DNA from: Eledone cirrhosa | Taxonomy: Eukaryota | Assembly: GCA_964016885.1 (NCBI GenBank) | Contig: OZ024740.1 | Location: 121,768,001-121,832,000 of the forward strand | Length of the DNA stretch: 64,000 nt | Direction of reading: 5' to 3' | In this document: one piece after another, positions 1 through 60,898 of the stretch | How positions within the stretch are numbered: the stretch's first letter is position 1 | Layout: every line of letters starts with the position of its first letter | The notes under the pieces: generated by a model | The model's database searches: none | The model's input: only the letters and a program-made list of their open reading frames with translations | What the model was told of the DNA's origin: nothing | Position numbers and translations under genes: made by a program

Positions 1-3000
1 GATATTATCGTAATTTCATGATAAAAGTTGTATGATGTAAGCGCAATGGACCTGTTTGAAAGGCCACATTTAAAGGTGGAGCAAAGGGGGAACATTATTG
101 CCCCAACCCTTTTGCCAAAAAGAAGTATATTTTAACAAAAAGTATTTAACATCCTTCAGGTGGCAAACTACATCACATTTTCTCAACCTTAGTAATATGA
201 GGTTGTTATCAGAAAACAAATGTCGTTGTGTAATACGGTTGTGGCGTTATCGCAAATACAATCTTGCCCTAAACATTCTAAAATGGTTAGTTTAGGAAGG
301 GCATCCAACCATAGAAACCATGCCATATATGTGATGTATGAACAATATGAGGTCATTCCGACATGTCTTGACTTTGACTGCGAGAAACTGTCTGACTCAT
401 GCCATTGTGGAAAGAGGGCGTAAAATGAGGAAGGTTAGAATTTTGAATTTAATACCTCTATGTATAAATTTTCAATTTTACATATCAATGCTAGTCGACA
501 TTCGTATTTAAAATTGGGTTTTTGATGTGTATATAAATTTGTTGGTATGAGGGCTCCACCCTCAACCCTGCAGTGCCCCTGGCGTCAGAAAGTCTAAATC
601 TGGCCCTACCTCTCTGGGGTTAATAAGATAAGTATGGGTAAAATTTGAAAAGGGAATTGACAAGAAAGTAATCTGAGGCCTTTAAAAAATAAAACGTTGA
701 TGAATATAAAATTTATGCATTTGCCATCTCCACCGGGACAGGTTTAAGGGACAGGTTCTGCTCGGGGCATTTCTTGGTGAGAGTAGTTACCCTAACAATC
801 AATGTGAAGACAGACACCAGTCGTAAATGTTCAACATCATTGCAAACTTTCGATTGATCTAAATTGATCAGTGCCTGCATATGTTTTTTATGTTGTTTAG
901 CGTGTGTGTTGCTGTGAGACAAGAAATATTTTTCGTTGTGGCTTATTTTTAAGTAAATCGTGGCATTTTAATCTGAAAAACCCATGATTACAAAAGTATA
1001 ACTCGAATCCCCCTCTATATTGTTGAGATTTGAATTTCATATGATGGTATCAGGTTCTGGTTGGCCAAATCTCATAATTTGTGTTAATAAAGTGTTTAAA
1101 TTCTGTTGGTTGCCGTTTTGCCACCAAATACACAATTATTTTATATTGCATATCGTCTCTTCCACATTCGATATTAGATAGCTATTTCCAAATAATATAT
1201 GCCTTTCTTAAAAGACGTATATAGAGCCAGTGATCACCACGAACTGGTGAATAGTTTTTTGTTTCTTCTAATCTTTTTTGCTATGCAGAATCCAAGATTT
1301 AACTAAATGTTGTCAACGAAGATTTGTTTTCTCTAGCTGATTTCTTACTATGTGAGATATATATTCTACCTTATTTTTAATGTACTTTATCTCGATTTTC
1401 CTTTCTTTTATCCACCGTATATTGATCAATACTTATTTAAACCCTCTCTTAGCGTTACTGTCAATAAAAACCCATTTGACTTTGAGTATTTGATAAATTA
1501 TATTCTTCTGTTTGCATATACTATTCTTAACAGTCCCCTATAACTCGGAATTTTAATTTTGACCACTTAATATTAATTAAATCATATCACAGAGAATCGA
1601 CTCTTCAGTAATGTTCTTTCACTATAAAAGATTGTGATGATCTGTTGTGTTTATGAGGTCTCATCTAAAACTAAATCGTCGAGAATTTGTAGATTTTCTT
1701 CCAAACTGCATATTATATAATATATCATTTAATGTTTTTCTTTTCTTTTAAACGAAGCACATTTTGAAAGCTAAATTCTATTCATATATATGTGTTGAAG
1801 GCATGTGTTGACTATGGGAAATTATAGATTGAAACATATTGTAGGTAACTAATTCTTATATGCGGATATTTACTATTATCCTTCATTTCTGTAATACTCA
1901 CCCCAGAATCCAATTAAGAAACATTTTTGCATATTACTGTAATATTTCAACCATTTTCCCCTACATAGAAATAAAAAAAATAAATCCATAGAATGTTCCA
2001 GTTAGAAAACATTATTCGTTTGATTTATATATTTTCCATTTCATTGAATGCACTCGCAAGTTTTCTTCTGACAGAAATTATCCAATCAGTCTTAATATTG
2101 GGGTATAGAGCCTTTCATCGTAGTCTTTGGGAAAATTGTCTCAGTAATATTTCGACAATTGTTTTCCCTACGATTGTGCTTGCGGTGTTAACACATTGAT
2201 TGTCATTTAGGGCATCAATATATTATTTAGGACCTATGTTACTTCTAATATATTTTTCACTTTGCAAGCCTACTATATCAGTCGCATAACCACTTGCGAT
2301 ATTAGTAGTATACTCTTTCACTCTTTCTATCTCTTTCCATAATATTTCGTATCAATTCTTGTTTTATGTATTTTTTTTTTGCAAATGCAAATACTGTAAT
2401 AGCCTGCCTATCACTAATTTGCCGCTCTGAATTCTCTTCTTGAAGCGGTTGCCCATTCTTCCCATGACCCTGGTTGGTACGAGATTGTACCCCTGTTGTG
2501 TCTGCAGATCAATAAATCAGATATTCGTGATATTGTTACATTTATCGAATTATTTCTATATTCGAGTTACATCTAATATTTCCATTCTAAAAATATGTTT
2601 ATTTTAATAGAAATGAAAACTTGCAGGTAATCTATAAAAATCTTTTTAAATAATTATGCATTTAATGGAAAAGTTTAATTCAGATTAATCCTTTAACATT
2701 AATGCAGTTTTCTCCTAGATTAAAACCAAGTTAAGTTTAAATAAACATTTAATGATTGGAAATACTTTAGTAAATATATACGCTCAGATAACGGGATGCA
2801 ATGATTAGCAGTCGAAAATACAATTGCATTTCAGTGACCCAAAGAAAATAACCGTTCTGCTATCAAGTCTAAAGAAGGAACCGAAAGATAAGCTGACCTT
2901 AAAAATATAGTCTATGGAATATGATGACGATTACACGACGAAATCACTACTTCTAAATAGAGCAACCCTTGTAGCTTGAATTGTGCTGAAAAATCAATTC

Positions 3001-4179: not shown

Positions 4180-4239
4180 CTACCAATACTGGAATTGAAT
4201 AATCAAGACCGTAGCGATATGTCATGTATCAAATCATAT

Positions 4240-4302
4240 ATTTTGTCTGATGAGGACGTACTGAAAAAACAACAGCGTACCTTTGAAATATATATAAAGT
4301 AT
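4240..4302 (+). ncRNA. Degenerate type-I hammerhead-like motif in a ~180-bp island between (TA)n tracts
   Basis: CTGATGA at 4247-4253, imperfect stem II, GAAA at 4285, palindromic ATATATAT-A stem III; stem I pairing is weak. Confidence 0.35.
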
Positions 4303-4404
4303 ACATTTTGATTATGAGAATAGTTTACTTTTGTTAATATTTTGAATAATATCATACATATATATATATTATAGTGAGAGGGAGAGCGAGAGAGAGAGAG
4401 AAAG

Positions 4405-13751: not shown

Positions 13752-13989
13752 CCACACATATATATATATATATATATATATTTATTTATAACTTTATTAA
13801 GGTTTGTTGGTTCACCACTGGATAGAACTGGCCATTCCGTATGGTCAATCCTGGTGTAATATTGTGATGAGTACTCAACGCAGTGCAGTTCACCCATCTT
13901 CGTTTGTGTAGTTGGTGGTGCGAATACGGAGTTAATTATAAATGAAATAACAGGAGGCTGGACAGGTGTAAATCCTTGAAAGGTTTATT

Positions 13990-14047
13990 ATACTATGATC
14001 ATTTCAATGATAGGGTTCCATATGAATCTGGTGATATCATCAGGTAT
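13990..14047 (-). ncRNA. Type-I hammerhead motif (stem II decayed) within a ~390-bp (TA)n-flanked element
   Basis: Minus strand: ATAC-CTGATGA-...-GAA-ATGATCAT-A-GTAT followed by AATAAA. Confidence 0.6.
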
Positions 14048-14299
14048 TGTAATATAACAAAGGAATATGTAAAAAGCCATGGGTCCGAAAGACTATGGGT
14101 CCGAGACACACTGTGGAGCTAGTTGGTCAGCCGCCCTCTCTGTCTCTGGTTTCTCGGACCCATGTTTTTTTATATATATATATATAAATATATATAACTG
14201 AAATAATATATATATATAATATATATAAATAATATATATCTATAATATATATATATATCTATATATGTATATATATATATATATAATTATTATTATTAT

Positions 14300-42438: not shown

Positions 42439-42547
42439 TCTCTATATATATATGGTATTGGGATCGGTGCTCTGAAGTAGCGATGTTTACATGAATGTAT
42501 GTATAGTATATATGGCAATATACCGTATGTTTACTTAAAATAAATTA

Positions 42548-42726
42548 GAAGACTATACGCTATCAGTTTTAATGTAGTGACTTACTTCTTTTCGGCAAAA
42601 GAAGGGAGATAAACTGACAGTCTGTTCACGCTGGTTGGCGTTCATCAGAGCCAGATACACCACTGGTTTCGCCGAAAATTATAGAAGGTGGATTCTTATA
42701 GAATTACAGTAATAATCAGGAAATGA

Positions 42727-42730
<4 letters not shown>
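42548..42730 (-). mobile_element. Fragment of retrozyme-like family R1 with HHR (42612-42652)
   Basis: Homologous to 54051-54245; minus strand GGCT-CTGATGA-ACGC CAACCA GCGT-GAA-CAGACT-GTC-AGTT (one core A missing). Confidence 0.75.
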
Positions 42731-42814
<84 letters not shown>

Positions 42815-42921
42815 GTTAAAATACTGGAGTATGTTGGAGTTAAACACCCTCCTCGTATTATAGAAATGACAGTAAAAGGTATAGCTCAATGTAGTTAAAC
42901 AGAGCCGAAAAATTATTTTAA

Positions 42922-44101
42922 TTTTTTTAATTTCCGGTTGATTCTATTTATTTATTTTATTTTATATTTTATATTTTATATTTTATTTGTAATACTACTG
43001 TGCATTATATTTACTGTCTGGCACTTACTCACTCATCCATATACATGTCTGTCTACCAACCTTGTAATTATAAGTAATTATATATTATATTATAGTATAT
43101 TAATTTATTTTATATAATATATTATATTATATTGTATTTTTTATTGTAATATTGATCCTTATTACTTACCGTTAATTGTATGTAACATTATGATATGTTA
43201 AACTTTATATATCATGTAAGATGTTTGGACTTTTGTACCATCAACATTTTTTTGAGGTATTGTACAATTTATTTTTCCTCACCTACTCTGTAACCCAGTA
43301 TGAATTGATTTGTTAACTTGAGTACCTTTATATTGTTTATTATAAATGTTAGTATATTGTATATTGTAAATGTTAATATATTATTATTATATTATTATTG
43401 TGACATCTATATTGTTTGTGTAAATTAACCGGAGATTATCTATCCTATTATATTGTATTATATAGTATATAACTGTATTATTTATTATTTATTATATGTG
43501 CTACTTATAATTATATCATATTATTACCTCATGTATATTGGGTAGACGTATTAGTAATATTATTATTATTATTTTCATTCCTATCATGCTTATTTTTATA
43601 TTCAAACTCTTAATACGGTTTAATTTGTGCAGTTGAAGATGGATGTGTATATTGTTGTATGTGTATGTGTGTGTACGTGTGTGCATATATATACATATGC
43701 ATATTGTACCTTTTGATTTTTATTGTAATTTTAATGTTGGTAAAGGTATATTATATTATATTATATTATATTATATTACATTGTATTATATATAATTCCT
43801 GCTATATATAACCACCTTTGTTTAGCTCTAGTTTTTTTTGCTTTGGACTATATTTGTAATATGGTTCTTAATGTTATATACATCCTTAGTAATTTTTATT
43901 ATATATTTTTATTATTTTTATTATACATTTTTGCAATACTTTAGTGTATGTACACTCCATATTCTTCGGAGCTTCCGGCTGTATCTGCCGATATTACTTC
44001 TTGTTGTTTTAATTGCCCTGATGAGTCCTTAATAGGACGAAACATTGTCGGCTAATAAAGACTTTTGATGTATTGAAGGCTTCTTTGTTTTACTCTCTTA
44101 A
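42922..44101 (+). repeat. 5' pseudo-LTR
   Basis: Near-identical to 47688-48858. Confidence 0.95.
44015..44052 (+). ncRNA. Minimal type-I hammerhead ribozyme (canonical core)
   Basis: GCC-CTGATGA-GTCCT TAAT AGGAC-GAAAC-ATT-GTC-GGC, followed by TAATAAA. Confidence 0.93.
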
Positions 44102-44277
44102 TTTTTCGGCTCTGTTTAACTACATTGAGCTATACCTTTTAATGTCATTTCTATAATACGAGGAGGGTGTTTAACTCCAACACACTCCAGTATTTTAACC
44201 CTTGTCACTGCTCCCGATCGGTTGAGCTTCCTCATATATACTGGTATTTTGGCCTTTATATATATACATCTGACAGT

Positions 44278-46963
44278 ATGCTAACAAATAGTTACCTGCC
44301 TTTATCGCTGAAGAATATCCCCACCCCTCTAAGAATACTTACGAAAAACTATTGATAGCTAGTGTTAACTCCTTTGTAAAAAGGATTAGATGGCGTGCTT
44401 TCCACTATGATAATAATAAGAATAGGAAGGACCCCAGGAATAGAACTATTTTTAATAACTACGGCTTCAAAACTTATAAGAGCCCACCACACAATATTCT
44501 GTTAGATAGTTTTGAAAGTGACTTACTCTCTCTTGTCAAAAATATTAGGTATAGGCCAAATAATAGACATAGAAATTATAATAATTTTGATAAGTTCCAG
44601 TCTAGACTTAAAAATATTGTTAAGGGTTTCGGTGAGAATAAGTCCATTCTTGTCCCGGCAGATAAGACTAGGAATCTATACTCCATGGATTATAGTGCTT
44701 ACCGCGACTTTATTTTTAAGGAGCTGCATAGAAACTATAAAAAAACCTACGCTTGAGAATTTGAACCACATCAATAGTGATGGCCTTAGAATTGTCTCTG
44801 ACCTCGGCCTCGATAAGTATACCCAGCCATATTACCCTCGAGAACCGAGATTCACTCTTAAGGATTATAAGGTTGATTTTATTAGTAACCCCTCTGTTAG
44901 ACTCATCTGTCCTTCTAAGTCTGATATAGCCATTATCAGTAAAAAAATCCTTGACCTTATTATACCAGATGTTAGGGATAAGGTTAATTTTAACCTATGG
45001 GGGAACACTAAGGAAGTTATAGATTGGTTCTCCGGGATTAATAGACTTGAATCTAATAATTTATCCAATTCGATATTGATGCCTACTACACATCAATTTC
45101 ACCCATCCTCCTCAATAAAGCTTTAATGTTGGCCATGAGAGTATCCGGCCTTACACGATCACAGGTAGAGATTATACTAGCAGCCCGTAAAACTATTATT
45201 AAATTTGAGGACACATTTTGGACCCGTAAAAACACGCCCAATAATTTCGACGTTACAATGGGTTCGAGTGATTCGGCCCAGGTTACTGATCTTGTTGGGT
45301 TGTTCCTCCTTAATGAACTATATGCTACCTTCCCGCACCTTATAGGCGGACTATATCGTGATGATGCATTGTTTGTAATTAACTCTAGCACCAACAATGT
45401 AGAACATAATAAGAAGAAGCTTTATAAGTTTTTTAAAAGCTATAACCTTTCGATCACGATAGATAGAAATGATAGAGCGGTTAACTTTTTAGATGTGACT
45501 TTGGACTTGGTCACTAATAGTTTTAAACCCTTCCATAAGCCTAATGAAATACTTTCTTATGTTAGTCCCAATTCTAACCACCCCAAGTCTATGATAAGCT
45601 CTATAATTAAGGGTGTATCTAATAGGATTTCCACACTCTCTAAGGACGTAGGAACATTTAATGAACATGCGGAGTACTATAATAATGCCCTAGCAAATTC
45701 AGGTTACTCTAATAAAATACAATATAATAATAGTAACCTTAGAAAGTCTCCGTCTACTTTTAATAATAATAACATAATATCACATAACATGGCCATGAAT
45801 GGGAGTAGCAAACATAGTAACCGTAAAAATTATATAGGTGTATCTGAAACCATCCATAAGTCAAACCACCGGACTCGTAATAGTGAATATAATACCTCTA
45901 GGAAACAAGTTGAACCCCCTGAGCGCTCACACATTGGTGATAATTTTGCTGGATCTTATTCTAATAATATTGCTCCTACTGATCCTATCATTGGCCCTAA
46001 TCCTTATGATGGGATTCCGGACAGCAGCAGATCTACTGGAGGTGGAAACTGTAATAGACAATGAAATTTTGGCTGATTCTATAAATGTGGCTTTAACTAA
46101 TCCTTGTAGTAACCCTAGTCTCGATGGTGGGATATTTGATAATGGTAGAGTCGGTAAGAATAAAAATAGAAGGCGATTAAATACTTATTTTAACCCGCCA
46201 TATAATCAGGAAGTATCAACTAATATCCCTAGGTCTTTCTTCTCTATCTTAGAGAAAAATGTCCCCCCTTCTCATAAATGCCATAGTATTTTTAATAAAA
46301 ATGTTATTAAACTTTCATTCTCTACCACCCCTAATATTAGTTCTCATTTAGCTAGCACTAACAATAGGAAAATTAGGGATGGATTCTCCTCTCTACATAC
46401 TACTAGTCTGAACAGATCTGGCAATGCATTACCACCAGAACAGTCCTTAACTAATAGCAATCCTACGTGTAATGCATCACCACTTGAGTCAACCAATAAC
46501 ACCCGGAAGTGCAATTGTAGAGTGAGATTCCTAACTTCCCTTTAAACGGTAACTGCCTTTCTAAGAACATTGTCTATGCTTGCGAAGTTATAACTAATTC
46601 CTCTAATAGAACTCATATAGGCTCTACATCTAACACTTTTAAGACTAGGTTTAACTCTCATATCTCTAATTTCAAGCATGTTAAGTTTAAGAATTCTACT
46701 TCTTTAGCACATTATAGCTGGGATCTTAAGGGAGCTAATATACCATATAGCCTTAACTGGCGTTTAGTAGCACGCTCTAATCACCTTTCTACACATACTA
46801 AGTTTTGTAATCTCTGTATCCTCGAATCACACTCTATAATCTTCTCTAGCGCATCTTTACTTAATAGAAAGTCTGAGATATTCTCTTCTTGCCCCCATGC
46901 TATTTCTAATTCATACTTTTATTATAAACCTAAACGTTCTAGTAGTACAAATTGTACCCATTA
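44278..46963 (+). pseudogene. PLE RT-GIY-YIG ORF with several frameshifts
   Basis: SLKNIP, RIRWRAF, ADKTRN, VRLICP, FDVTMGS, GLYRDD, NFLDVT, SNHP, YFNPPY, CNC, IVY..HIGST..FKTRF, CNLC, LNRKSE. Confidence 0.92.
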
Positions 46964-47687
46964 GCTGGTATATTCCATTATTTATTTTTTAGTTTAGGTT
47001 CTTTTGTTTGCCAACGTTATTATTATCATCATTATTATCATTGGTTTTTGATGACTCTTTATTCTAACTCTCATAATCTTTTGGCTACTGTACCATATCT
47101 ATCTTCTTATGCATTAAATTTTCACTATTACACCTTATGAATGTATATAAGATTATATATTTTACGCTATTTATTTTATTTTATTCTTATTTTTATTTTT
47201 TTTTATTCGGATTCTTCTTTGGAACCCGCCCCCCCCCCCCATGCGCACATAAACTTAGTGTCAACCCCTCCAAGTTGACTATGATTATATTATATTTAAC
47301 CGCCCCTCCTTTACGCTCCTTTCTATTATGTAATATAGTATATCGACTATATTTTATGCCCCTTTGCATCCTCCATATATTTCTCCATTTCTGTCCCTAT
47401 TAGCCTACCTTAATTCTGCTTAAGTCAGTTCTTTAGATATCGTTATGTATATGATAATAAAAAATGTTCATTCCTTTTTGTAAAGATTTGTAACGAAATA
47501 TTAAGGTTTATAAACTTTAATGACTTAAACTATAGCTAATATTATACTGCCTTATTGAATAGTTTAAATATTTTTAATATTAATTTATCAAATGGGGTTT
47601 TTGAGTCATTTACAGGGGTTGTTTCCTTAGTTTTTACTTAACTACTTAACTGCATGTGAGACCTAAATGTATACGTTTGTTTTTGTT

Positions 47688-48854
47688 TTTTTTAATTTCC
47701 GGTTGATTCTATTTATTTACTTTATTCTATATTTTATATTTTATATTTTATTTGTAATACTACTGTGCATTATATTTACTGTCTGGCACTTACTCACTCA
47801 TCCATATACATGTCTGTCTACCAACCTTGTAATTATAAGTAATTATATATTATATTATATTAATTTATTTTATATAATATATTATATTATATTGTATTTT
47901 TTATTGTAATATTGATCCTTATTACTTACCGTTAATTATATGTAACATTATGATATGTTAAACTTTATATATCATGTAAGATGTTTGAACTTTTGTACCA
48001 TCAACATTTTTTTGAGGTATTGTACAATTTATTTTTCCTCACCTACTCTGTAACCCAGTATGAATTGATTTGTTAACTTGAGTACCTTTATATTGTTTAT
48101 TATAAATGTTAGTATATTGTATATTGTAAATGTTAATATATTATTATTATATTATTATTGTGACATCTATATTGTTTGTGTAAATTAACCGGAGATTATC
48201 TATCCTATTATATTGTATTATATAGTATATAACTGTATTATTTATTATTTATTATATGTGCTACTTATAATTATATCATATTATTACCTCATGTATATTG
48301 GGTAGACGTATTAGTAATATTATTATTATTATTTTCATTCCTATCATGCTTATTTGTATATTCACACTCTTAATAAGGTTTAATTTGTGCAGTTGAAGAT
48401 GGATGTGTGTATTGTTGTATGTGTATGTGTGTGTACGTGTGCGCACATATATACATATGCATATTGTACCTTTTGATTTTTATTGTAATTTTAATGTTGG
48501 TAAAGTTATATTATATTATATTATATTATATTACATTGTATTATATATAATTCCTGCTATATATAACCACCTTTGTTTAGCTCTAGGTTTTGTTTGCTTT
48601 GGACTATATTTGTAATATGGTTCTTAATGTTATATACATCCTTAGTAATTTTTATTATATATTTTTATTATTTTTATTATACATTTTTGCAATACTTTAG
48701 TGTATGGACACTCCATATTCTTCGGAGCTTCCGGCTTGTATCTGCCGATATTACTTCTTGTTGTTTTAATTGCCCTGATGAGTCCTTAATAGGACGAAAC
48801 ATTGTCGGCTAATAAAGACTTTTGATGTATTGAAGGCTCCTTTGTTTTACTCTC

Positions 48855-48858
<4 letters not shown>
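47688..48858 (+). repeat. 3' pseudo-LTR
   Basis: Near-identical to 42922-44101; abuts (TA)n. Confidence 0.95.
48772..48809 (+). ncRNA. Minimal type-I hammerhead ribozyme (canonical core)
   Basis: Identical to 44015-44052. Confidence 0.93.
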
Positions 48859-48900
<42 letters not shown>

Positions 48901-48906
<6 letters not shown>

Positions 48907-49650
48907 GCGAGAAGAAACATTTAGATATAATTAGTAATAAGATGTATCATACCTAAACTGCTTCTAGATTCCTCGACTACGTAGTTTCGTGGCATAATCA
49001 AAAACAATACATCATAGAGATATAGAGCTTTTGTGAGGTATGCCGACTTATCAAGAGGATACCTCATTTTACTAGCTTCAAAGAGCACGTCTATAAGATG
49101 TGAGATAGAATCCCAAAAGGCGGAGGGGGAGTCAATCACGTGATACGACGGTCAAGAAACAGAGCTAAGCCCCTTATAACCCCGAAAAAAATACCACGGA
49201 GGCGGAGGGGGTATTTATATCGAGGCCGCAGAAGAGGTGGTTAAGGAGGCAAGAAGTATGAGTAATGGCAGCTTTCCAGCAGTCACTACACTTCAAGGAT
49301 TACTCGACAAGGGGGAGTTATAAACAATATATTGAGAAACACACAGATACATGCGGACACATACATATACATGAATATATCCACATCCATCCTTGAAACT
49401 ACGTAGTCGAGGAATCTAGAAGCAGTTTAGGTATGATACATCTTATTACTAATTATATCTAAATGTTTCTTCTCTCTTCATAATGTACTTATAGCTCTGG
49501 TTCAGTCTAATCCATTCGGATTGGTTTGTCCCAGTTATTCATAGAGCAACATCGGTTAAGGTTGGCACCATTAACTCAAGGATGGATGTGGATATTTTCA
49601 TGTATATGTATGTGTCCGCATGTATCTGTGTGTTTCTCAATATATTGTAT
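48901..49650. mobile_element. Retrozyme-like family R2: head-to-head, circularly permuted arms
   Basis: 48901-48988 is the reverse complement of 49395-49482; ~49318-49396 is the reverse complement of ~49576-49652; (TA)n on both sides. Confidence 0.8.
48970..49059 (-). ncRNA. Type-I hammerhead, U3-A8 core variant, long stem II
   Basis: Minus strand: TCCTC-TTGATAA-GTCGGCATA...TATGCCAC-GAAAC-TACGTA-GTC-GAGGA. Confidence 0.8.
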
Positions 49651-49677
49651 ATATATATATATATATAGATAGATATA

Positions 49678-49879
49678 TAACGAAGGAAATGTGGTAACGA
49701 ACCAGGTGGACCATAACGCACCAAAGTACTCAATACTTGGGGTAGTAGAGTGGGTAATAGGAACGAGTAGGACCCCGACGGCTGAGCTCAAGCCGTCTCG
49801 ACGGCTAATTATGGACTAAATTTAGTCCAGAATTAGCTGTCGAAACGGCTAGAGCTCAGCCGTCGGGGTCCTACTCGTT

Positions 49880-49884
<5 letters not shown>
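49678..49884. mobile_element. Fold-back element family P, copy 2 (near-perfect ~127-bp palindrome 49757-49884)
   Basis: Arms are reverse-complementary about ~49820; GAAAC-GGCT AGAGCTC AGCC-GTC-GGGG at 49842-49868. Confidence 0.85.
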
Positions 49885-49942
<58 letters not shown>

Positions 49943-51559
49943 TTGTTTTAAATTTCGACAGGGTCAAATAATTTCTACTTTATTTACTAAATATCTTTGA
50001 AACTATACATTCAGACACATGTAGTGAATTATGTAAAATGATTCTTGTGATACCTTTTACCTTACACATTTTCCCGTTAATAAATACATGTTGATTATTT
50101 AACACCACATAAATGTCTTCTTCACCTTGATATTGGCATTAATTTAAGTGTTAATTATTTAATGCTGGAATATATTTCATTCCAAATGTTGTGATATTTG
50201 GAGTATTTTATAACCGACTAACAGAAAAATTGTATGTATGAAGAATGGGCGCCTTAGCCTAATCGGCCTAAATTAAGCCACGTTTCTTGTCTGTAATCAA
50301 ATAATGATTCATTTTGCTTGAACACGATTTTCATTACATTTTTTCAATAACAATGTCTGTGATTTTAATTCCTGTGGCTTAATTATTCAATCCAGTTTTT
50401 GTTCTTAGCGAATTCTACGTTTCTCTTTGTAATCCATTTAAAGCAAAAATCTGTTATTTAAATATTCAAATCCTTTACACGGGCTTAATGCTGTTATTTT
50501 TTATCATTCCAAATATCGTTTGTACATTGTAAAATAAGAAAATGCATGTGGATTTTGTTGAGATCTATATTTGTATTAAACTAGATGTTTCATACTAGTT
50601 CTCTTCAGAGAAAACTAATGAAAACCCCGTTCAAAAAGGTAATCTACGCCAACTCCATCGAGCAATGCCAGTTTTGATAGATTAGACAACAATGTTCAAC
50701 CAGTGTATTTAATTCTTTGTTAAAATGCCATTGATTGGTAATCATGGCACAGGTGGTAAACAATCTATACACGTCCCAACGTTAAATTCAATAAAGATTT
50801 ATTAGCATAGGATAGGGACATCATATATTATCTAGTATATCTGGTATTCTCATTCATTAGATATATAAATATTTCCAGTATCAAAGAATTCAAACATTAT
50901 ATATCAGGGAGTTTCGTGTTCTAAACAATCCAATAGGAACTGAGAAACTTGTTTTGCAGTTGAGAAAGAGATCAATCTAGTTGTGAGTGTTGGCACTGTC
51001 AGGGAGGTCAATAGTGAAGGAAAGAAGCTGATATATAGAAATGATGCGCAAAAAAGATGCACTCTCTGAGTAATGACAGAAGAAGGGGATGCATGTAGAG
51101 ACTAGAAGAGTTGTAAACATCAAAGTCTTTGAGGATGATGACTTCGCGGAATGTCAACAAGGTAAGACATATATTTGAAGATATGTTAGCAAGTTAAAAG
51201 AGTGCTAAAAGGAGCAGAAGTATTTGGAAGACTATATTGTGTAGGGTTTCAGGTAGCATTACGAGAAACCTTGGGAACGAATGTATGTACTGACACGTCG
51301 TTGGAATTAAGTTTGAAATGTGTTGGCATGACATCAGTGATAGTTCGCAAACATTTGATTTTCTGACTGGAATAAGATGTAGATGCTGCTTGTTAATAGG
51401 TGAGCTGTACATGGGAAATATGTAGGATTTATACTTCACTGTACTCCAAGATAAGGCGGGTGTTACCACTCAGGAATGATGTTAGGTTTTCACCATTCAT
51501 GCATGAAATAATGTTCATATATGTCTTTGCTACTGATTACATACACACATACAGAAATA

Positions 51560-51735
51560 AGAGGGTGCTTCAAATATTACGTGGAAAAGGGACAGTTGAA
51601 AAAACAGTTTAAGTTATGACTTTTATTTTTCAACATATGCTCCATCTTGGTCAATACACTTCTGCCAGCGTTAATACCAGTATTTCTATTCATCTGTGTA
51701 AAACTGTGGACCATGCGATTTAAACCATGACAAAG
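51560..51735 (-). mobile_element. Mariner transposase C-terminal relic plus element end
   Basis: Minus strand reads WFKSHGPQFY..RWQKCIDQDGAYVEK*, the typical mariner C-terminus. Confidence 0.75.
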
Positions 51736-51959
51736 TAGTATTTATTTTACATCTGCAACCTAATCTCTTCCACCCTAGCTTCACCATGAATTTGATTATT
51801 TGAGGGAGACCATGTTACATGAGCAGGTGATGACATAGTGTGATCTCAGGAAGTTTAGCTAAGAACGTTGGCTTTATATAGAGCAGTTGCACCAGAACAC
51901 TAACCAGCCAACGACCGCCGAGAACAAGAACTAAAACATTCCTGGAGGGCTCAATAGTA

Positions 51960-52535
51960 ACAGTAGACAGCGTCTGCTACTTAGGTGACCACATGGGGAG
52001 TGGTGTTGGGTATTCTGAAAGTACAGTAGAAAGAGTAAGAACGGGATGGAAGAAATTCAGGGAGCTACAAATACTGCTGGCTATAAAAGGCTTTTCGCTC
52101 ATAATGAAAGGCAGACTGAATGATGCGTGCATACGAACATCAATGTTGCATGGTTGTGAGACCTTGGAGCTGTGTGCAGGAAGCTTACGTAGATTGGAAA
52201 GAGTTGGAAGCGGCATGCTCCGATGGATGTGTAAATGTAATATACGAGAACTGCGAAGCATAAAAGAACTGAGAAAGAAACTAGGCATAAGAGATATCAA
52301 ATGATGTGTGCAGGAGAGGACATTACGTTGGTATGGACATGCGATGCGTATGAAGGATGGCAGTTGCATAAAAAGGCACAGAGCACTCAAGGTCGATGGA
52401 AACCTTTGAGTTGGGAGATACAGGAAGACTTGGGATGAGGGGATAAAAGCCGACCTTTCTCAAGTGCACCTCTTAAAGGCGAGGACACAAGGCCGAGATC
52501 TGTGGCGATACGCAGTAATACAGAAGACCCGAATT
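51960..52535 (+). mobile_element. RTE-clade LINE 3' fragment
   Basis: YLGD, RVRTGWKKFREL, KGRL..ACIR..MLHGCET, MLRWMC, LRWYGH, GR.RKTW. Confidence 0.88.
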
Positions 52536-52719
52536 CCCATGGCCATGACATGCAGCATATATGCAGTATGCCCTAACCCGAAATCCCTTAACCCCCTATG
52601 AAGACAGGGCGACGTAAATGCATCTAGTAAAGCCCCCAGCCCAAACTGTAAAGAGGACGTGATGGTGACACGGGAAAAAGGGCCCAGCCTACACTGTAAA
52701 ATACACCCAGTCCACACTA

Positions 52720-52920
52720 TAAAGTGGTCGTGTAAGGCAATCAGAAACCACTGTAAATGAGTTTGGCGTTGGGAAGGACAGCCAGCTGTAGATACTAAGC
52801 CAGAATCAGTCCTTTATGAGCAATATATGGTCACCTGAGCTAGCATTACCCACAATAGGACAACGCGTATAACGCATGCTAGCGTGGAAATTAGACGTAA
52901 AACGGTGGTGATGATGAGGA
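52720..52920 (+). mobile_element. Decayed SINE/RTE-related 3' tail
   Basis: TTGGCGTTGGGAAGGACAGCCAGCTGTAG motif and (GAT)-like tail resemble a common cephalopod repeat (from memory). Confidence 0.45.
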
Positions 52921-53538
52921 TATATTATATATACACACATAATACATACATATATATATATATATACACACGTGTGTGTGTGCGTGTATATATATATATA
53001 TATATGTATGTATTATGTCGGTACCTACCACAAAACATCGACAGACACACACACAGACGCATATATATATATATATAAAGATACATGATTTGATTATTGG
53101 GGTCGACTAGAAACGCTCAAACGTCATTCTGTCCAACATCGCCATGATCGCTACATCATCTGCAAGATGTGGGAAATATTCAGTCGGCATTTCGCAAATC
53201 ATGCTGCCATCACCTTTAAGGTACACCCATGTCTTGGGTCCCATGCTATCCACCAACAACAAAAATCACACTCGCATCTAATAACAACAATACAGCACAA
53301 TGATTTTACCTCAATTGGCCGCGCCCTCATTAACATTACACTCAAACACATTAAAACAAAGCTAGACAACATAAATAAAGTTGAAGAAGTCCTTCAACAA
53401 ACCTCCTATACACGGATATGTCCCAGCAAACAATAACTCTCTAATTGAGTGGGCCATGGTGTCCAAATACTGATTTAATAGCGGTGCTATTAAGTTAGAT
53501 ATGGCCTGGGCAAATACTGGCCGAGATCTATCAAAGTA

Positions 53539-53610
<72 letters not shown>

Positions 53611-53614
<4 letters not shown>

Positions 53615-53777
53615 AGAAAGTATGACCCGACGGTAGAAATAGTACTGAAAGAGTCGTCGAAACGGCTTCAGCTCTACTGACGGGGTCATACTTTCTCCTA
53701 TTACCTACTCTACTACCCTAAGTATTGAGTACTCTGGTGCGTTATGGTCCATCTGGTTCCTTACCACAAATCCTCCG

Positions 53778-53780
<3 letters not shown>
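53611..53780 (+). mobile_element. Fold-back element family P, copy 3
   Basis: Inverted arms 53611-53637 / 53673-53700; GTCGAAACGGCT; tail homologous to the reverse complement of 49678-49757. Confidence 0.75.
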
Positions 53781-53820
<40 letters not shown>

Positions 53821-53942
53821 TATAATAGGTTACTTGTCTAAAAACCTAGCATTTCGAGCCACTTTTTTCCATATAAAAGAGAAGTAACATTCGAACACCA
53901 ACCAGATGCAAGAAAAACGACAACCCCTCCATTCCAATTCTA

Positions 53943-53978
53943 CTTTTGAAAAGCACAAGAACTGCGAAACCGGTAAAG
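53943..53978 (+). ncRNA. Minimal type-I hammerhead, U3-A8 variant
   Basis: CTT-TTGAAAA-GCA CAAGAAC TGC-GAAAC-CG-GTA-AAG; palindromic ACCGGT stem III. Confidence 0.65.
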
Positions 53979-54121
53979 AAACAACATAAACATTTTTAAA
54001 AAGACTGTAGTTGCATTTTCGATTTCACCTTTTTTCTTTATAATATATATGAAGACCTTACGCTATTGTTTTAAAGTAGTGACTATGTCACTTACTTCTT
54101 TTGTCAGCAAACAAAGGGAGA

Positions 54122-54169
54122 TAAGCTGACAGATCTCTGTTTGGTACTGTTGGTACTCCTCAGAGCTTA
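54122..54169 (-). ncRNA. Type-I hammerhead (G12->C)
   Basis: TAAGCT-CTGAGGA-GTAC CAACA GTAC-CAAAC-AGAGATCT-GTC-AGCTTA. Confidence 0.75.
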
Positions 54170-54528
54170 CCACCCCTTTTTCCTGCTGAATATTATTGAA
54201 TGTTGGATTCTTTTAGAATTCCAGTAATAATCAGGAACTGATTATAGAGAGCGGTGCCGGTCAAGCAAACATTGAACATTAGAATTGGTGCTTTGAAAAA
54301 GCCATATATATATATGAATGTATATATATAGTGTATTTTGCAATAGACTGTATGCTTAATTAAAAGTATTTTGAAGACTTTAAGTAAGCATACAGGGTAT
54401 TGCAAAATACACTATATACTCTGTATAATCAGTTAATCGGCAACCGCTCTGTATAATCAGTTCCTGATTATTACTGGAATTATATAAGAATCCAACATTC
54501 ATAATTTTCAGCATGCAGAGGGAGTGGC

Positions 54529-54574
54529 AAGCTCTGAGGAGTACCAACAGTACCAAACTGAGAGATGTCAGCTT
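54529..54574 (+). ncRNA. Type-I hammerhead (G12->C)
   Basis: AAGCT-CTGAGGA-GTAC CAACA GTAC-CAAAC-TGAGAGAT-GTC-AGCTT. Confidence 0.72.
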
Positions 54575-54811
54575 ATCTCCCTTTGTGTACGGAAAAAAGA
54601 AGTAAGTGACATAGTCACTATTTTTAACATAATAGCGTAAGGTCTTCAAAATGCTTTTAATTAAGCATACTGTGTATTGCAAAATAGACTATATATACAT
54701 TCATATATATATATATCGCTATTTCAGCGCCCCAATTCTAATATATATATATATATGTATATACATATATATAAATATATACGTGTGTCTGGTTTTGTGT
54801 GTGTGAATATA

Positions 54812-54895
54812 TACAATGTGTCCTTCAAACATCTATGCATAGTTCAACAACATTCTAATAAATATGTGTATACATATTTTGGGGACACACTGTAT
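54812..54895. mobile_element. Tc1/mariner-type MITE (~80 bp)
   Basis: Imperfect TIRs TACAATGTGTCCTTCAAA / TTTGGGGACACACTGTA flanked by TA. Confidence 0.55.
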
Positions 54896-55939
54896 ATATC
54901 ATGCACTCATCTGTCCATCTCGACGTATGAGTGTCTAGTTGCTTTACCTAAGTCAGTTAGTGGTAGTCCGACCCGACGAGGATGTGTCAACAAATATGTC
55001 GCCAAAGTCTTTCAAAAAAGGGTACATGTGATACAACAGTGTAGGCTTTGAGAGAGTTTAATTGGAAATAGAGCAAATGCGTTTGTCATCAATCATGCCT
55101 CTTCAAAATGCTGAAGTCAACTACATTCAAACACCTTAATGGTACCATAACAACTCGTTTTTCCCTTTTCTCTGTCCAGACTACTCGATCTAATATATTC
55201 ATGTGTGTATCTACAAACTGTATGAAAGCATCCCTTCTGGAACACATTTAGCTGATATCATTGTGTACCATATGGAGTCCAGAATCCACAACCATACATA
55301 TATAATAAATGCATGTTGGTTAATGATTAGGGTGTCTATTCATGGAACAGATGGAGCGTTGTGTTCTTAAGTAAAACACTTCATTTACATATTGCTGTAG
55401 TCCAGTCAGCTGAAAATGAGAAACAGCAGTAGCTGTGCTTTTGTCCTGCGATCAACTGGCCTCCTGTTAAGGAGATAGTGATGAAATTAATGCCTATGAA
55501 TGTGAGTTAAACACCGGAGTGGTGACTGTCTTGGCTTGGATCTAGCTTTCATCTATTTTCTTCTCCACAAACACGAATATATGAATGTATTTTTGAATAT
55601 ATGAATGTATATATATGAATATATGAAGTTAAATCGTGTGAAACCATAGCCGGACTAGAAGCTGATGAGTGTATAAAAATGTTTGTATGATATTCTGGCG
55701 TTCATTGTCTTCCTTTTCCTCTTTCTTCCTATCACTTCTGTAGACAAAAACACATCTGGCCGCTTAATTCTGTTCTTTCAGGTATAATTTACCCAACACT
55801 CTCCCTGACGACATTTTGCTCTTTTAAGAGCTTCATTGTGATTAGTGCATCTCATTATTCTACGAATTCCAATACACTCGCGCTTCAAACTCAATATCTC
55901 GATATACGGTATAACTTGTATACATACATACATACATAC

Positions 55940-56292
55940 ATGGTGGCTCCCAACTCGTTTTCAAGTACGGACACTACTTTATATCCATGTAGGAGAACCC
56001 CCAAAGATGCACTGAACGAGTGTGACTTTTTAGTCCAGCCAGAGCAAACTCACTGCACAAAGCCAGTCCCACTCTCTTAACCAAGATGATATTTACGAAA
56101 AAGAATAACAAGTCAACATCATTGGATACCATCAGAGTTGCAGGTGTTATATCAGAGTTTTCCTTCTCCTAGAATTATGCCTTGACAAAGGCTAAGGGAT
56201 CATCTCTGATATATATATATATATATACACATATATACATACATATATACATACACATATATATATATATACATACACATATACATACATAT

Positions 56293-56347
<55 letters not shown>

Positions 56348-57685
56348 CATATATACATACATATATACATACATATATATATATATATATGGTGGCTGCC
56401 AACTCGTTTTCGAGTACGGCCACTACTTTATATCCATGTAGGAGAACCCCCACCGATGCGCTGAACGAGTGTGACTTTTTAGTCCAGCCAGCGACTTGAA
56501 AACTCTGGTACAAACACTACACCTGTGACAATTATTGACACATAGTGCTGGGCCCATGGTACCATGTGACGACAAGTGCAGAGATCTCCAGATATAAAGC
56601 AATGCCTGTGCCGTGAAGCTTTTATAGTGAGCAAAGGCACTGCACAAAGCCAGTCCCACTCTCTTAACCAAGATGATATTTACCAAAAAGAAGAACAAGT
56701 CAACATCATTGGATACCATCAGGGTTGCAGGTGTTATATCAGAGTTTTCCTTCTCCTAGAATTCTGCCTTGACAAAGGCTAAGGGGTCATCTCTCCCGGT
56801 GATTTTGGATGGCCATTGACTATTAAGAGCTCATTTTCCCTTTGACAGGTTTTGTTTTTAGTCCTGCAGGATGTCCAAAGTCACCCTCCTCACCAAGAAA
56901 CCTCGGTGGGGTTGCCAGTTTAGTCGCCAACGACCCGACCATGGGACAGGTTGTACTGAGATACATGTTACCAGTAGCACCAATTGGTAACCTGACATAC
57001 ATACATACATACATACACACATGCATACATACATACATACATACATACATACATACATACATACATACATACATACATACATGGTGGTGGCTGCCAACTC
57101 GTTTTCGAGTATGGCCACTACTTTATATCCATGTAGGAAAACCCCTACCGATGCGCTGAACGGGTGTGACATTTTAGTCCAGCCAGCGACTTGAAAACTC
57201 TGGTACAAACTCTACACTTGTGACAATTATTGACACATAGTGCTGGTACCATGTGACGACAAGTGCAGAGAGATCTCCAGAAATAAATCAATGCCTGTGC
57301 CGTGAAGCTTTTATAGTGATCAAAGGCACTGCACAAAGCCAGTCCCACTCTCTTAACCAAGATGATATTTACCAAAAAGATGAACAAGTCAACATCATTG
57401 GATACCATCAGGGTTGCAGGTGTTATATCAGAGTTTTCCTTCTCCTAGAATTCTGCCTTGACAAAGGCTAAGGGATCATCTCTCCCGGTGATTTTGGATG
57501 GCTATTGACTCTTAAGAGCCCCTTTGCCTTTTGACAGGTTTTGTTTTTAGTCCTGCATGATGTCTAAAACCACCCTCCTCACCAAGATACCTTGAGGGGT
57601 TGCCGGTTTAGTCGCCAACGACCCGACTATGAGACAGGTTGTACTGGGATACATGTTACCAGTAGCACCAACTGGTGACCTGACA
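55940..57685 (-). mobile_element. Tandem array of three short internally deleted RTE-like elements with (ATGT)n tails
   Basis: Units ~55940-56207 (partial), 56389-56995 and 57081-57685; C2H2 remnant [22 protein letters not shown] typical of RTE/BovB C-termini; separated by (CATA)n. Confidence 0.7.
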
Positions 57686-57763
57686 TATATACATACATAC
57701 ATACATACATACATACATACATACATACATACATGAAGAAAGCATGCACGGTAGTGGAAATTA

Positions 57764-57881
57764 GAAAAAGTATGACCCGACGGCAGAGCTCAAGCCGTTT
57801 CGACGGCTATTTCTGGACTTAAATAGTCCAGAATTAGCCGTCGAAACGGCTTGAGCTCTGTCGTCGGGGTCATACTTTTTC
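57764..57881. mobile_element. Fold-back element family P, copy 4 (palindrome)
   Basis: Arms reverse-complementary about ~57821; GAAAC-GGCT TGAGCTC TGTC-GTC-GGGG at 57843-57869. Confidence 0.82.
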
Positions 57882-58061
57882 CTCTATATATATATATATA
57901 TATATATGGGATACCTAGTTATCGTTTAGGTAATCCAGTTAGAAGTTGTGACTACTCTGTACCGTTGATAGTTTTAACGTACGGCGTTGTTTGACTGAAC
58001 AAATGGTTTCCAAGGTAGCGAGTTGCCGAGAATTCCCATGCAGGTTACTCTTGGAGTAATA

Positions 58062-58270
58062 ATAGTCAAAGAGTGAAGAATAACAAGGTCGGCTGTACAA
58101 AAAGGGTTTTATTTATAGTATTAACAATTTGTTTAATGATCATGTCGAGTGACGCAACTTCGAGTGATTAGCGTGTTTTAGACTCATCTGATCAATGAAA
58201 CAATTGTTAATACTATAAATAAAACCCTTTTTGTACAGCTGACCATGTTATTCTTCACTCTTTCACTACT
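58062..58270. repeat. Imperfect ~205-bp palindrome with HHR-3'-half-like motif
   Basis: Arms 58062-58142 / 58189-58268; right arm GAAAC-AATT-GTT, then AATAAA. Confidence 0.75.
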
Positions 58271-58296
58271 CTATATGTATATATATATATATATAT

Positions 58297-59485
58297 ATTT
58301 ATTAAAATAACAGATTAAAGTTTAAGCAAAGAATAGCTGCTTTCACCCTTAACGGGATCTTCTGAAACTAACAAAGTCAATCTGTAAACGCAGAACTGGA
58401 TATTTCAAAAAACGTTGCAACCGGAGGAAGACAGGAAGACGATACTTTGGTTCGTGGAAACGTTCCCTGGCAAAGAACGGGAAAAAACGAATATAATACG
58501 CCATTAATAGGAGCGGTGAAAAACAATTATGCGCAAAGACAGAACCACGTTTATGGTATAAAAGAGGTCGTAGACTAATGTTCTCTTAGGTGGTTCATAG
58601 AGACGTTCTCTGGCAATGAACGAAAAAAACGAAGATAATACTTCATATGAGGAGCGTGGAGAACAATTGCACGCAAAAGCAAAACCACGTAAATGGTATA
58701 ACTGAAGTCGTAGACTAAAATTCTAACTAGGAGACCGAATGAATCTCCGCTTCAGAGTGAAGAACAAAGTAAATAAATACAATACAGAGGTAACAGAAAT
58801 TAAATAAATACATACACGCATAAAAATACGTACATACACAAGCATACGTGGAAACACTTACCATAGGTATACAAAACCACGCACATATAAATATGTGTGT
58901 GTGTGTATGCATGTATACAAATACATAAATAATTAAATAAACGTATATAAATACATAAATACGTATATATCAAGCGCACACACATGCCTACATGTAACTA
59001 CACAAATGTTCGGAAACGTAAGTCAACCAAAACATGAAGTACACATACACACACCCTACATACGTACGAACCTGCATACTCACACAGACGCAAAACACCC
59101 GTATACACATAACCAAACCATATGTACCAGAAAATATAAAATTATACGCCATAACATATACAATCAAATATACGTACGAGAAGGTATACGTACCTTCACA
59201 AAACATACAGGTAATATATACTTACATATGCAAATAACTAATGGTATAAACAAAACATATACTTAGCTACCACATCAAGACGTAAAATATCCACGTATAG
59301 ATCGTACTATCCGTTAGGGTATAAAGTGGGGCTGTAACACAGGAAAGTTTTGTGCAATTTATGTTTACAAGCCGAAATTACCTGAGATTTTTTGTTTAAG
59401 ATGTGGTCTGTGGCGTAGAGTATTTCCAGGGCCTCACGGCGCAGGGGAGACATGGTCTTTTATATCCGTTATACGATCTAGCCCT

Positions 59486-59486
<1 letters not shown>
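58297..59486 (-). mobile_element. PLE 3' fragment (GIY-YIG end plus pLTR), same family as 5527-7410
   Basis: Colinear with 5527-6707; (TA)n at both ends. Confidence 0.92.
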
Positions 59487-59561
<75 letters not shown>

Positions 59562-59583
59562 CTCTCTACATGACTGAATACAA

Positions 59584-59788
59584 TAAATTTAATCTGAGTT
59601 TTTCGAATAGTAATGATAATATTCGATTCATTTGCAATTATGCAAACACGCCTCAATCTTAAAGCCATGTCAGTAGAATGAGTCCCGCATTCTTGTTGTC
59701 GTGTTGGCATAAGAATGAGGCCTGTTTGCATAATTGCAAACAATTCGAATATTATTATTAATGTTCGAAAAACTCAGATTAAATTTAT
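59584..59788. repeat. Imperfect ~205-bp palindrome between (TA)n tracts
   Basis: ATAAATTTAATCTGAGTTTTTCGAA... / ...TTCGAAAAACTCAGATTAAATTTAT, with internal hairpins in each arm. Confidence 0.85.
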
Positions 59789-59800
59789 ATATATATATAT

Positions 59801-60480
59801 ATACAAATAAAATATAGAGTTATTAACTCATATAGATACCCTGCAATTAACAAGCTCAAAGTGTAAATACTGAGCATTATAATATTAATATGTGTAGAAG
59901 TAAACACAGTAAACCCTTGTCTAAAATTACGAGGGTAGATTACACCACAAATGTTATATATCATTCAACCTGAATCATATGGGATGTTACAAGATTTCTT
60001 ACAAGATTTCTCATACATACCATATCAATAACCATTTCATCTCCCGTATCTATATGAGTTAATCACTCAATATTTTATTTGTATTTCGGCTCCTTATCTG
60101 TTGAGCTTATAAACATGAGTGTAAATAGGCTATTATGTCTAGCATAATCACTCGCACCGCATATAACTTTCAACGCACGAGGTGTAAACTTTAGTGAGTT
60201 TATTGTTATAGGTGTTATGTAACATTTAGTCTTATCTCCTGCTGACGAAATGCCTACGTATTACTTGTTACAAACACGATTCATTCAGGGCGAAACAGAT
60301 TAAATCTTTAGTTGACCGGGAGATGAATTGGTTATTGATATGTATGTATGAGAAATCTTGTAAGAAATCTTGTAACATCCCATATGATTCAGGTTGAACG
60401 ATATATAACATTTGTGGTGTAATCTACCCTCGTAATTTTAGACACGTCTTTACTGTGTTTACTTCTACACATATTAATAT

Positions 60481-60482
<2 letters not shown>
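59801..60482. mobile_element. Retrozyme-like family R3: head-to-head, circularly permuted arms
   Basis: 59879-60046 is the reverse complement of 60317-60482; 59801-59839 is the reverse complement of 60046-60084; HHR-like motif at 60234-60324. Confidence 0.78.
60234..60324 (+). ncRNA. Degenerate type-I hammerhead
   Basis: Stem I ATCTCCTG/CGGGAGAT, CTGACGA, GCC..GGC stem II, GAAAC; stem III and cleavage triplet irregular. Confidence 0.5.
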
Positions 60483-60544
<62 letters not shown>

Positions 60545-60621
60545 TTGACTCTGTTTTCCTATGATTTTTATCCTTAATTTCTGAATGCATTTACTCTTTT
60601 CATGATATCTTCTATATTTGG

Positions 60622-60898
60622 AACTCTTTTCTATTGGTCAATTCAAAACCTGTTCCCAAACAGACCTTTTATATTAATACTTTGTTTCTTTCAATAAACA
60701 TACTTCATCATTTCTGAAGATGACATGTATAGGTAAGGGTATGTATATCTCCTCCGAGAATTTGTAATATTTTTTACATAGGTCTTTAACATGATATACA
60801 TACCAACACATATGTATCCCAGAAACGATCGTAAAATGATGAATTTTTCAATATAAGGAACCTGTTCTTTGTTTTTATTTCATTGTTTCTATTAATTT
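60622..60898 (+). mobile_element. Solo pLTR end of the 8540-10522 PLE family
   Basis: Homologous to 10248-10525; ends at (TA)n. Confidence 0.85.
60704..60843 (+). ncRNA. Type-I hammerhead with extended stem II
   Basis: TTCATCATTT-CTGAAGA...GAAAC-GATC-GTA-AAATGATGAA. Confidence 0.75.

What the first reader, a model, noticed from the sequence alone, without database searches (positions are those of the whole stretch)
42548..60482. A multi-family retrozyme-like system: small non-coding HHR elements that mimic PLE insertion into (TA)n
Seen: at least three sequence-unrelated non-coding families (R1 54051-54742 and 42548-42730; R2 48901-49650; R3 59801-60482), plus singletons (13990, 53943, possibly 4247). 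Each carries a type-I hammerhead motif and lies in or beside (TA)n. R1-R3 share one architecture: two divergent arms, where one arm runs past the end of the other and into its start. The coding PLE at 42811-48858 has the same HHR class, target and 5' inverted segment. Established: PLE pLTRs carry minimal type-I HHRs, and non-LTR retrozymes in some metazoans are HHR-containing repeats that yield circular RNAs and are thought to use PLE proteins. Inference: this genome hosts a diverse retrozyme radiation riding on (TA)n-targeting PLEs. I am not aware of a description in cephalopods but cannot verify novelty.
Basis: partly seen in the sequence, partly recalled or inferred. Interest (0 to 1): 0.85.

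Follow-up and report, generated by a model that had tools for sequence, protein, structure and literature searches.

The report
Ribozyme mini-elements riding Penelope-like retrotransposons
Several high-copy, protein-free repeats here carry a hammerhead ribozyme motif and sit in TA microsatellites with the same two-ended footprint as the neighbouring Penelope-like jumping gene, so they are likely hitch-hikers of such genes: new members of a known class, the animal retrozymes, whose cleavage and circular RNAs remain untested.

Summary
Real, and mostly as read. R1/R1b (~320 nt), R2 (~589) and R3 (478) are high-copy, ORF-less families whose arms wrap round a closed unit. All carry family-level type-I hammerhead motifs; R2 has the known U3-A8 core. 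The window's R1, R1b and R3 ribozyme copies are mutated. The 'singletons' split: 13990 is a fourth ORF-less family (1861-nt unit), while 53943 and 4247 are truncated ends of coding Penelope-like elements (PLEs). Each family has two fixed 3' ends in (TA)n. Head-to-head insertions use one of each in 43 of 45 resolved R1-R3 loci and 11 of 11 loci of the coding Hydra-type PLE. This is the known PLE 'tail', explained in vitro by two RT start sites, so these elements are likely moved in trans by PLE proteins. No sequence link to a particular partner was found, and no RNA data were available. Verdict: new members of a known kind (non-LTR retrozymes / non-autonomous PLEs); my searches found no cephalopod description. 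The scan noted similar patterns earlier in other genomes.

The parts
42454..42730 (-). R1b: single arm of a sister family of R1 (period ~320 nt), ending at its distal end (about +162) in TA; hammerhead 42648->42616 (this copy lacks one core A)
42811..42915 (-). Inverted 'tail' arm of the coding PLE: the 105 nt between its two 3' ends (+53 and +154 from the ribozyme cut site)
42916..48858 (+). Hydra-type PLE: pLTR 42916-44101, frameshifted RT-EN ORF ~44290-46964, pLTR 47681-48858; unit 4757 nt; hammerheads 44018-44049 and 48775-48806; other copies have open 950-970-codon frames
48901..49396 (-). R2 arm A, ends at proximal end E1 (+74) in TA; hammerhead with U3-A8 core and long stem II at 49054->48975
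49395..49653 (+). R2 arm B, starts inside the hammerhead (3' half) and ends at distal end E2 (+245) in TA; unit ~589-595 nt
53830..54040 (+). 5'-truncated 3' end of a coding Neptune-like PLE (unit ~4.57 kb); minimal U3-A8 hammerhead 53946-53975; not a retrozyme
54051..54382 (-). R1 arm A (ends at +76, not a family end); hammerhead 54163->54128 with G12C
54379..54742 (+). R1 arm B, ends at distal end E2 (+171) in TA; hammerhead 54534-54569 with G12C; unit ~321 nt
59801..60046 (-). R3 arm A, ends at distal end E2 (+246) in TA
60046..60482 (+). R3 arm B, ends at proximal end E1 (~+167) in TA; hammerhead 60242-60316, cut site mutated in this copy; unit 478 nt
13793..14170 (-). R5: piece of an ORF-less family with an 1861-nt unit, ends about +53..62 and +198..208; non-canonical hammerhead-like motif 14043->13994
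4180..4355 (+). 5'-truncated 3' end of a second Hydra-like coding PLE; minimal hammerhead from 4247; not a retrozyme

Best explanation
R1/R1b, R2, R3 and R5 are ORF-less, hammerhead-bearing repeat units that are likely copied into (TA)n in trans by Penelope-like element (PLE) proteins, that is, non-autonomous PLEs or non-LTR retrozymes. Shown: closed units without an ORF; head-to-tail wrap; head-to-head arms with 3' ends outward in TA; two fixed 3' ends per family, one used per arm; the same rule in the coding Hydra-type PLE. Inferred mechanism: the PLE protein, probably a dimer, binds one RNA that is a circle or a tandem multimer. It nicks both strands of (TA)n and starts reverse transcription at two internal sites downstream of the ribozyme, one at each nick. 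The two cDNAs stop at variable points, sometimes after more than one unit, and are joined head to head through 0-4 nt of overlap. The hammerhead would cut multimers to unit length and permit circles, but that step is untested here. The partner clade is open; the young, intact, TA-targeting Hydra families are my first guess (about 50%).
For: Wrap beyond one unit by at least 40 nt: R1 19 of 29 loci, R2 23 of 29, up to 3.4 units; R3 arms pass the same marker twice in 13 of 30 loci (read); R5 3 arms exceed 1861 nt. Longest stop-to-stop frame 61-81 aa and no tblastn hit of two PLE proteins on the R1-R3 units. Unlike ends in 43 of 45 resolved two-arm loci (R1 11/12, R2 20/20, R3 12/13; binomial p 3e-11), 15 of 15 for R5 read by eye and 11 of 11 for the coding PLE among 20 fetched. 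Contigs of independent-looking runs also break into TA near both R2 ends. Arms of one locus share private variants at 2.56 vs 0.17 per kb between loci (R1), 1.78 vs 0.08 (R2) and 0.78 vs 0.21 (R3). Ribozyme structure is conserved: 3 of 4 stem II pairs are compensated between R1 and R1b, and R2's U3-A8 core is a described variant (PMC4209133). Circular folds are more stable than shuffles: z -4.6 (R1), -6.3 (R2), -2.3 (R3). A purified PLE nicks and extends both strands and starts at two internal sites that bound the tail (PMC11167929).
Against: No sequence similarity between any ORF-less unit and the four coding PLE families seen; the best was 31 nt at 81%, E 0.004. Only the top 15-30 loci per query were examined. 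Many two-arm loci had one unresolved end (R1 8, R2 3, R3 7). Two loci scored as like-ended: L009, whose end is not in TA, and L079. Within-locus divergence was not lower than between-locus divergence for R3 (6 of 16, provisional unit) and for several R1 loci, including the window's; shared variants could also come from gene conversion. In vitro, the PLE studied showed no strand preference between start sites and did not need ribozyme cleavage for insertion. Isolated hammerhead folds were mostly no better than shuffles.
Confidence: 0.78

Rival explanations
1. R1-R3 are only truncated pLTR pieces of ORF-bearing PLEs that were not sampled; they were never independent elements.
For: True for 53943 and 4247 in this same window. 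The endonuclease query had 59,644 first-look candidates, of which only the top 150 were scored, all 92-100% identical to the query. PLE ORFs lie within 1.5 kb of several R loci.
Against: The arms return to their own start after 321-589 nt, so the unit cannot hold an ORF. The 10 flanks inspected are separated by TA or other sequence, or interrupted by the R copy, and are unrelated to each other except one 68% pair. The same extension method did recover ORFs for 53943 and 4247.
Confidence: 0.08
2. The elements are PLE-mobilised, but the template is a linear read-through transcript of tandem source loci; the hammerhead is a passenger and no circular RNA is involved.
For: Tandem arrays exist (L033, L038, L041). 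Ribozyme cleavage was dispensable for PLE insertion in vitro. Eight of nine Xenopus retrozyme dimers did not cleave. Successive units in one arm differ by 0-3% in R2 and 5-11% in R1.
Against: Core and stems are conserved with compensatory changes, which suggests selection on the ribozyme. Coral, mussel and axolotl retrozymes give abundant circles. L041 units are identical over 582 positions.
Confidence: 0.35
3. The two-arm structures are DNA elements with terminal inverted repeats (MITE-like), or fold-backs made after insertion.
For: Long inverted repeats at the ends and a TA target.
Against: The outer ends are two different fixed positions of one unit rather than matching inverted ends. The central junction varies freely between copies, single arms occur, and the coding PLE shows the same layout.
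Confidence: 0.03

Closest known systems
Non-LTR retrozymes of animals (Cervera & de la Pena 2020, PMC7229834; Li, Clavereau & Pollet 2026, bioRxiv 10.64898/2026.07.22.740005)
   Same: Non-coding, low-GC (33-41%), self-paired units with a type-I hammerhead, occurring as monomers to short tandems in a genome with PLEs. Unit sizes 321-589 nt lie within Li's 51-972 bp range.
   Different: Here the sampled copies are mostly dispersed head-to-head two-arm insertions in (TA)n with two fixed ends, not long arrays. No pLTR homology to a partner was found, whereas 24 of 57 Xenopus families match known TEs, nearly all PLEs. R5 is 1.86 kb. Expression and circles are untested. No cephalopod was among the species named in the parts read.
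PLE insertion unit with pLTR, inverted 5'-truncated copy and 'tail' (Arkhipova 2013 PMC3846280; Craig 2021 PMC8557442; Frangieh 2024 PMC11167929)
   Same: Inverted truncated copy, tail on one end only, two internal RT start sites, microsatellite target.
   Different: Tails here are 26 (R1), 78 (R3), ~100 (PLE), ~145 (R5) and ~160 nt (R2), against 30-40 nt described. The one-of-each pairing is counted here as near-obligate. The units are ORF-less.
Non-autonomous Chlamys PLEs such as MRC1 (Craig 2021)
   Same: ORF-less elements that make pLTRs and head-to-tail copies.
   Different: Those resemble their autonomous partners at the 3' end, and Chlamys elements mostly lack canonical hammerheads.
Hydra-clade PLEs, including Hydra-1_Obim (Craig 2021, File S1)
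   Same: The coding element has RW[KR], DKT, CxCx5C, CxxC and CxH motifs, a hammerhead and a (TA)n target.
   Different: Unit 4.76 kb with a ~900-aa ORF, against under 3 kb described. No sequence comparison with Hydra-1_Obim and no tree were made.

Membership tests
Non-LTR retrozyme | Type-I hammerhead motif in each unit | tested here: met
   Family alignments, covariation; window copies of R1, R1b and R3 are mutated; R5 motif is non-canonical
Non-LTR retrozyme | Head-to-tail repeat units of a few hundred nt | tested here: met
   Wrap in 19/29 R1 and 23/29 R2 loci, up to 3.4 units; R3; R5 unit is larger
Non-LTR retrozyme | No protein coding, low GC | tested here: met
   Frames at most 61-81 aa, GC 0.33-0.41
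Non-LTR retrozyme | Highly self-paired unit RNA | tested here: met
   Circular fold z -4.6 (R1), -6.3 (R2), -2.3 (R3, weak); 25-40 shuffles each
Non-LTR retrozyme | Expressed as linear and circular RNA | not testable with these tools
   No RNA holder listed
Non-LTR retrozyme | Self-cleavage | not testable with these tools
   Needs an in vitro assay
Non-autonomous PLE | PLE insertion footprint (inverted truncated copy, tail at one end, microsatellite target) | tested here: met
   43/45 R1-R3 loci, 11/11 coding PLE loci
Non-autonomous PLE | End similarity to an autonomous partner | tested here: inconclusive
   None against the four coding families seen; the rest were not sampled
Hydra-clade PLE (42811-48858) | DKT, RW[K/R], CxCx5C linker, CxxC and CxH in a C-terminal endonuclease; hammerhead; (TA)n target | tested here: met
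   DKT, CxCx5C, CxxC and CxH in 4/4 intact copies, RW[KR] in 2/4 and in the window copy; criteria; Pfam gave no RT or GIY-YIG hit
Hydra-clade PLE (42811-48858) | Placement in the RT phylogeny | not tested
   No reference sequences fetched
Retrozyme status of 53943 and 4247 | ORF-less closed unit | tested here: not met
   Both extend into PLE ORFs (GIY-YIG Pfam hit for the 53943 family)

The most novel reading that the evidence does not exclude
At least four unrelated hammerhead RNA circles, with no sequence kinship to any local PLE, are recognised by structure and inserted by one PLE dimer that primes both target strands at two sites of a single RNA molecule. This would be direct genomic evidence that animal retrozymes move by PLE twin-site priming, and it would give a ready in vitro system.
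Probability: 0.3. Interest if true: 0.75.

Novelty: new member of a known kind. Interest (0 to 1): 0.5.

Why it matters
That animal retrozymes are moved by PLE proteins is proposed from co-occurrence and pLTR homology; the 2026 preprint says the mechanism is unresolved and also offers local tandem amplification. Here dispersed ORF-less units carry the PLE two-start-site footprint next to young, intact PLE copies, so the question becomes directly testable with defined RNAs, start sites and target DNA. The near-obligate pairing of unlike ends, and the variants shared between arms, constrain how PLEs complete an insertion. In practice such families are easily misannotated as MITEs or unknown repeats, and their long, variant hammerheads were missed by Rfam.

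Tried and rejected
Rfam scan of the window: only the PLE hammerheads. Genome-wide RF00163 search: 18 matches, all of the window's PLE family or close to it, with 74 of about 415,000 candidates scored, so it gives no census. Strict and relaxed descriptors missed R1-R3 in the window. Sequencing runs: no RNA holder listed; three runs of unrecorded kind from one sample were laid, gave contigs only, and say nothing on expression. I first read the extra ~180 nt in some R3 copies as SINE cargo of the unit; rejected because lengths and flanking duplications differ and both forms occur in one arm. The R3 rows used a faulty reference and are provisional; one search replaces its mapping. PLE ORFs beside R loci were checked as possible parents and rejected. 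Pfam did not recognise the Hydra-type ORF. No tRNA in four unit loci. L016 and L042 were dropped as duplicates of L008 and L032. Copy numbers were not obtained; first-look candidate counts are not copy numbers. No further whole-genome search was available for the palindromic family at 49679. Literature searches finding no cephalopod retrozyme; the Octopus vulgaris repeat paper has no 'ribozyme' or 'hammerhead' in its main text. No paper linking PLEs to twin priming was evident from the listing. Subscription papers, Repbase/Dfam and the preprint's supplements were not visible.
Full report
Observation. R2: 48901-48988 inverts 49395-49482, and 49319-49396 inverts 49576-49653. R3: 59880-60046 inverts 60317-60482, and 59801-59839 inverts 60046-60084. 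R1: 54278-54382 inverts 54638-54742. PLE: 42811-42915 inverts 44099-44203, with 1.19-kb pLTRs 97.7% alike. All abut (TA)n. Rfam and my descriptor saw only the PLE hammerheads and 4247, because the window's R1, R1b and R3 copies are mutated and R2's core is a variant. A 3.0-Gb genome and a SINE that I recall as octopus-like suggest an octopus; that is inference.

Families. Searches of the window's genome gave 1812, 3368, 1676, 2766 and 2584 first-look candidates for R1, R2, R3, R1b and 13990; 40 were scored each and 15-30 loci fetched. Mapped on a circular reference, arms run continuously round the unit. This exceeds one unit by at least 40 nt in 19 of 29 R1 loci and 23 of 29 R2 loci, up to 1980 nt or 3.4 units. 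R3 arms pass the same marker twice in 13 of 30 loci (read). R1b has a ~320-nt period. 13990 belongs to an 1861-nt unit with three arms longer than one unit. No unit has a frame above 81 aa, and the R1-R3 units have no tblastn match to two PLE proteins. By contrast, the 53943 family extends over 4 kb into RT and GIY-YIG frames with a CxCxxCxxC linker (Neptune-like by my reading of the clade motifs), and the 4247 family reaches a Hydra-like endonuclease about 1.3 kb upstream.

Ribozymes. R1 is canonical in the family (20 of 39 copies fully intact), with a palindromic helix III. R2 reads U3-A8 in all 51 aligned copies with a ~65-nt stem II region; the same covariation is described for PLE hammerheads (PMC4209133, first quarter read). 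R3 has an 8-10-bp stem I and a long helix III. Between R1 and R1b three of four stem II pairs change on both sides (related sequences, so not a probability). Only R3 and the PLE motif fold better than shuffles in isolation. Activity is untested.

The two-end rule. Measured from the cut site, 3' ends fall at two fixed points: R1 +145/+171, R2 +74..85/+245, R3 +169/+246, R5 about +53..62/+198..208, coding PLE +53/+154. Where both outer ends of a head-to-head insertion resolve, they are one of each in 43 of 45 R1-R3 loci (18 further two-arm loci had an unresolved end; p 3e-11), in 15 of 15 R5 loci read by eye, and in 11 of 11 PLE loci among 20 fetched, plus the window's own. This is the PLE 'tail', described as present at one end only (PMC8557442, passages and section 11; PMC3846280, passages). 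It was traced in vitro to two internal RT start sites, with both strands nicked and extended by a protein predicted to be a dimer (PMC11167929, first half read). Arms of one insertion share private variants 4-22 times more often per kb than arms of different insertions, though only 14 of 59 two-arm loci show any, and gene conversion is not excluded.

Mechanism. Shown: unit structure, target, end pairing, and a young coding PLE family with open 950-970-codon frames and Hydra-clade motifs. Inferred: a PLE protein acts in trans on a circular or multimeric RNA, primes the two nicks at the two start sites, and the cDNAs are joined head to head over 0-4 nt (overlaps). Untested: transcription, cleavage, circles, and partner identity; no unit resembles the four coding families seen. 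I put PLE-mediated mobilisation of independent ORF-less units at about 0.78, and a circular intermediate at roughly even odds, since cleavage was dispensable in vitro while retrozymes of coral, mussel and axolotl do form circles (PMC7229834, results parts read).

Novelty. Non-LTR retrozymes and their PLE origin are in print (PMC7229834; bioRxiv 10.64898/2026.07.22.740005, main text read, supplements closed). Non-autonomous PLEs are known in Chlamydomonas, opposite-strand hammerhead pairs 100-700 bp apart in Schistosoma, and a (TA)n-targeting Hydra PLE in an octopus. Searches found no cephalopod retrozyme. Earlier notes of this scan report like patterns in other genomes (unchecked). What is added is several new families and a counted PLE footprint on ORF-less units. 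Verdict: new members of a known kind, interest 0.5.

Noticed in passing
window 49679-49884, 53612-53780, 57756-57886, 13489-13680: A further very common two-armed family in (TA)n with unequal arms (about 78-nt tail) and the 3' half of a hammerhead (GAAAC, long helix III, GUC) near a variable palindromic centre; looks like a MITE but is probably PLE-type. Seen in over 30 BLAST rows from fetched loci; upstream part not recovered.
   Followed up: partly
L066, L069, L071, L073, L074, L078, L080, L081 (R3 near +170): A SINE (copies in the window at 5127-5310, 12803-12939, 16579-16961) sits antisense at the same position beside R3's proximal end in 9 of 30 internal crossings counted, with different 5' lengths and flanking duplications: a repeated SINE insertion hot spot.
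   Followed up: partly
window 5533-8540, 58272-59436, 63557-64000: A second Hydra-like PLE family with a large head-to-head inversion (6087-7218 against 7410-8540); its hammerhead was not located.
   Followed up: no
window 8535-10520 and 60542-60900: Another degraded PLE family and a short 3' end of it beside R3; matches the PLE next to L009.
   Followed up: no
window 59583-59788 and 58094-58237: Small palindromic elements bounded by TA, possibly stumps of further two-armed insertions.
   Followed up: no
window 24979-27717 (-) and 19800-23000: An open 912-aa RT frame (Pfam RVT_1), with a C-terminus that I recall as restriction-like endonuclease, in partial tandem with a broken copy; by recall a site-specific non-LTR element in (TTA)n.
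   Followed up: no
L142, L145, L146, L147: The Hydra-type ORF is about 900 aa with long asparagine-rich stretches between RT and endonuclease, longer than the described clade; recalls the N-rich inserts of rotifer Penelope elements.
   Followed up: no
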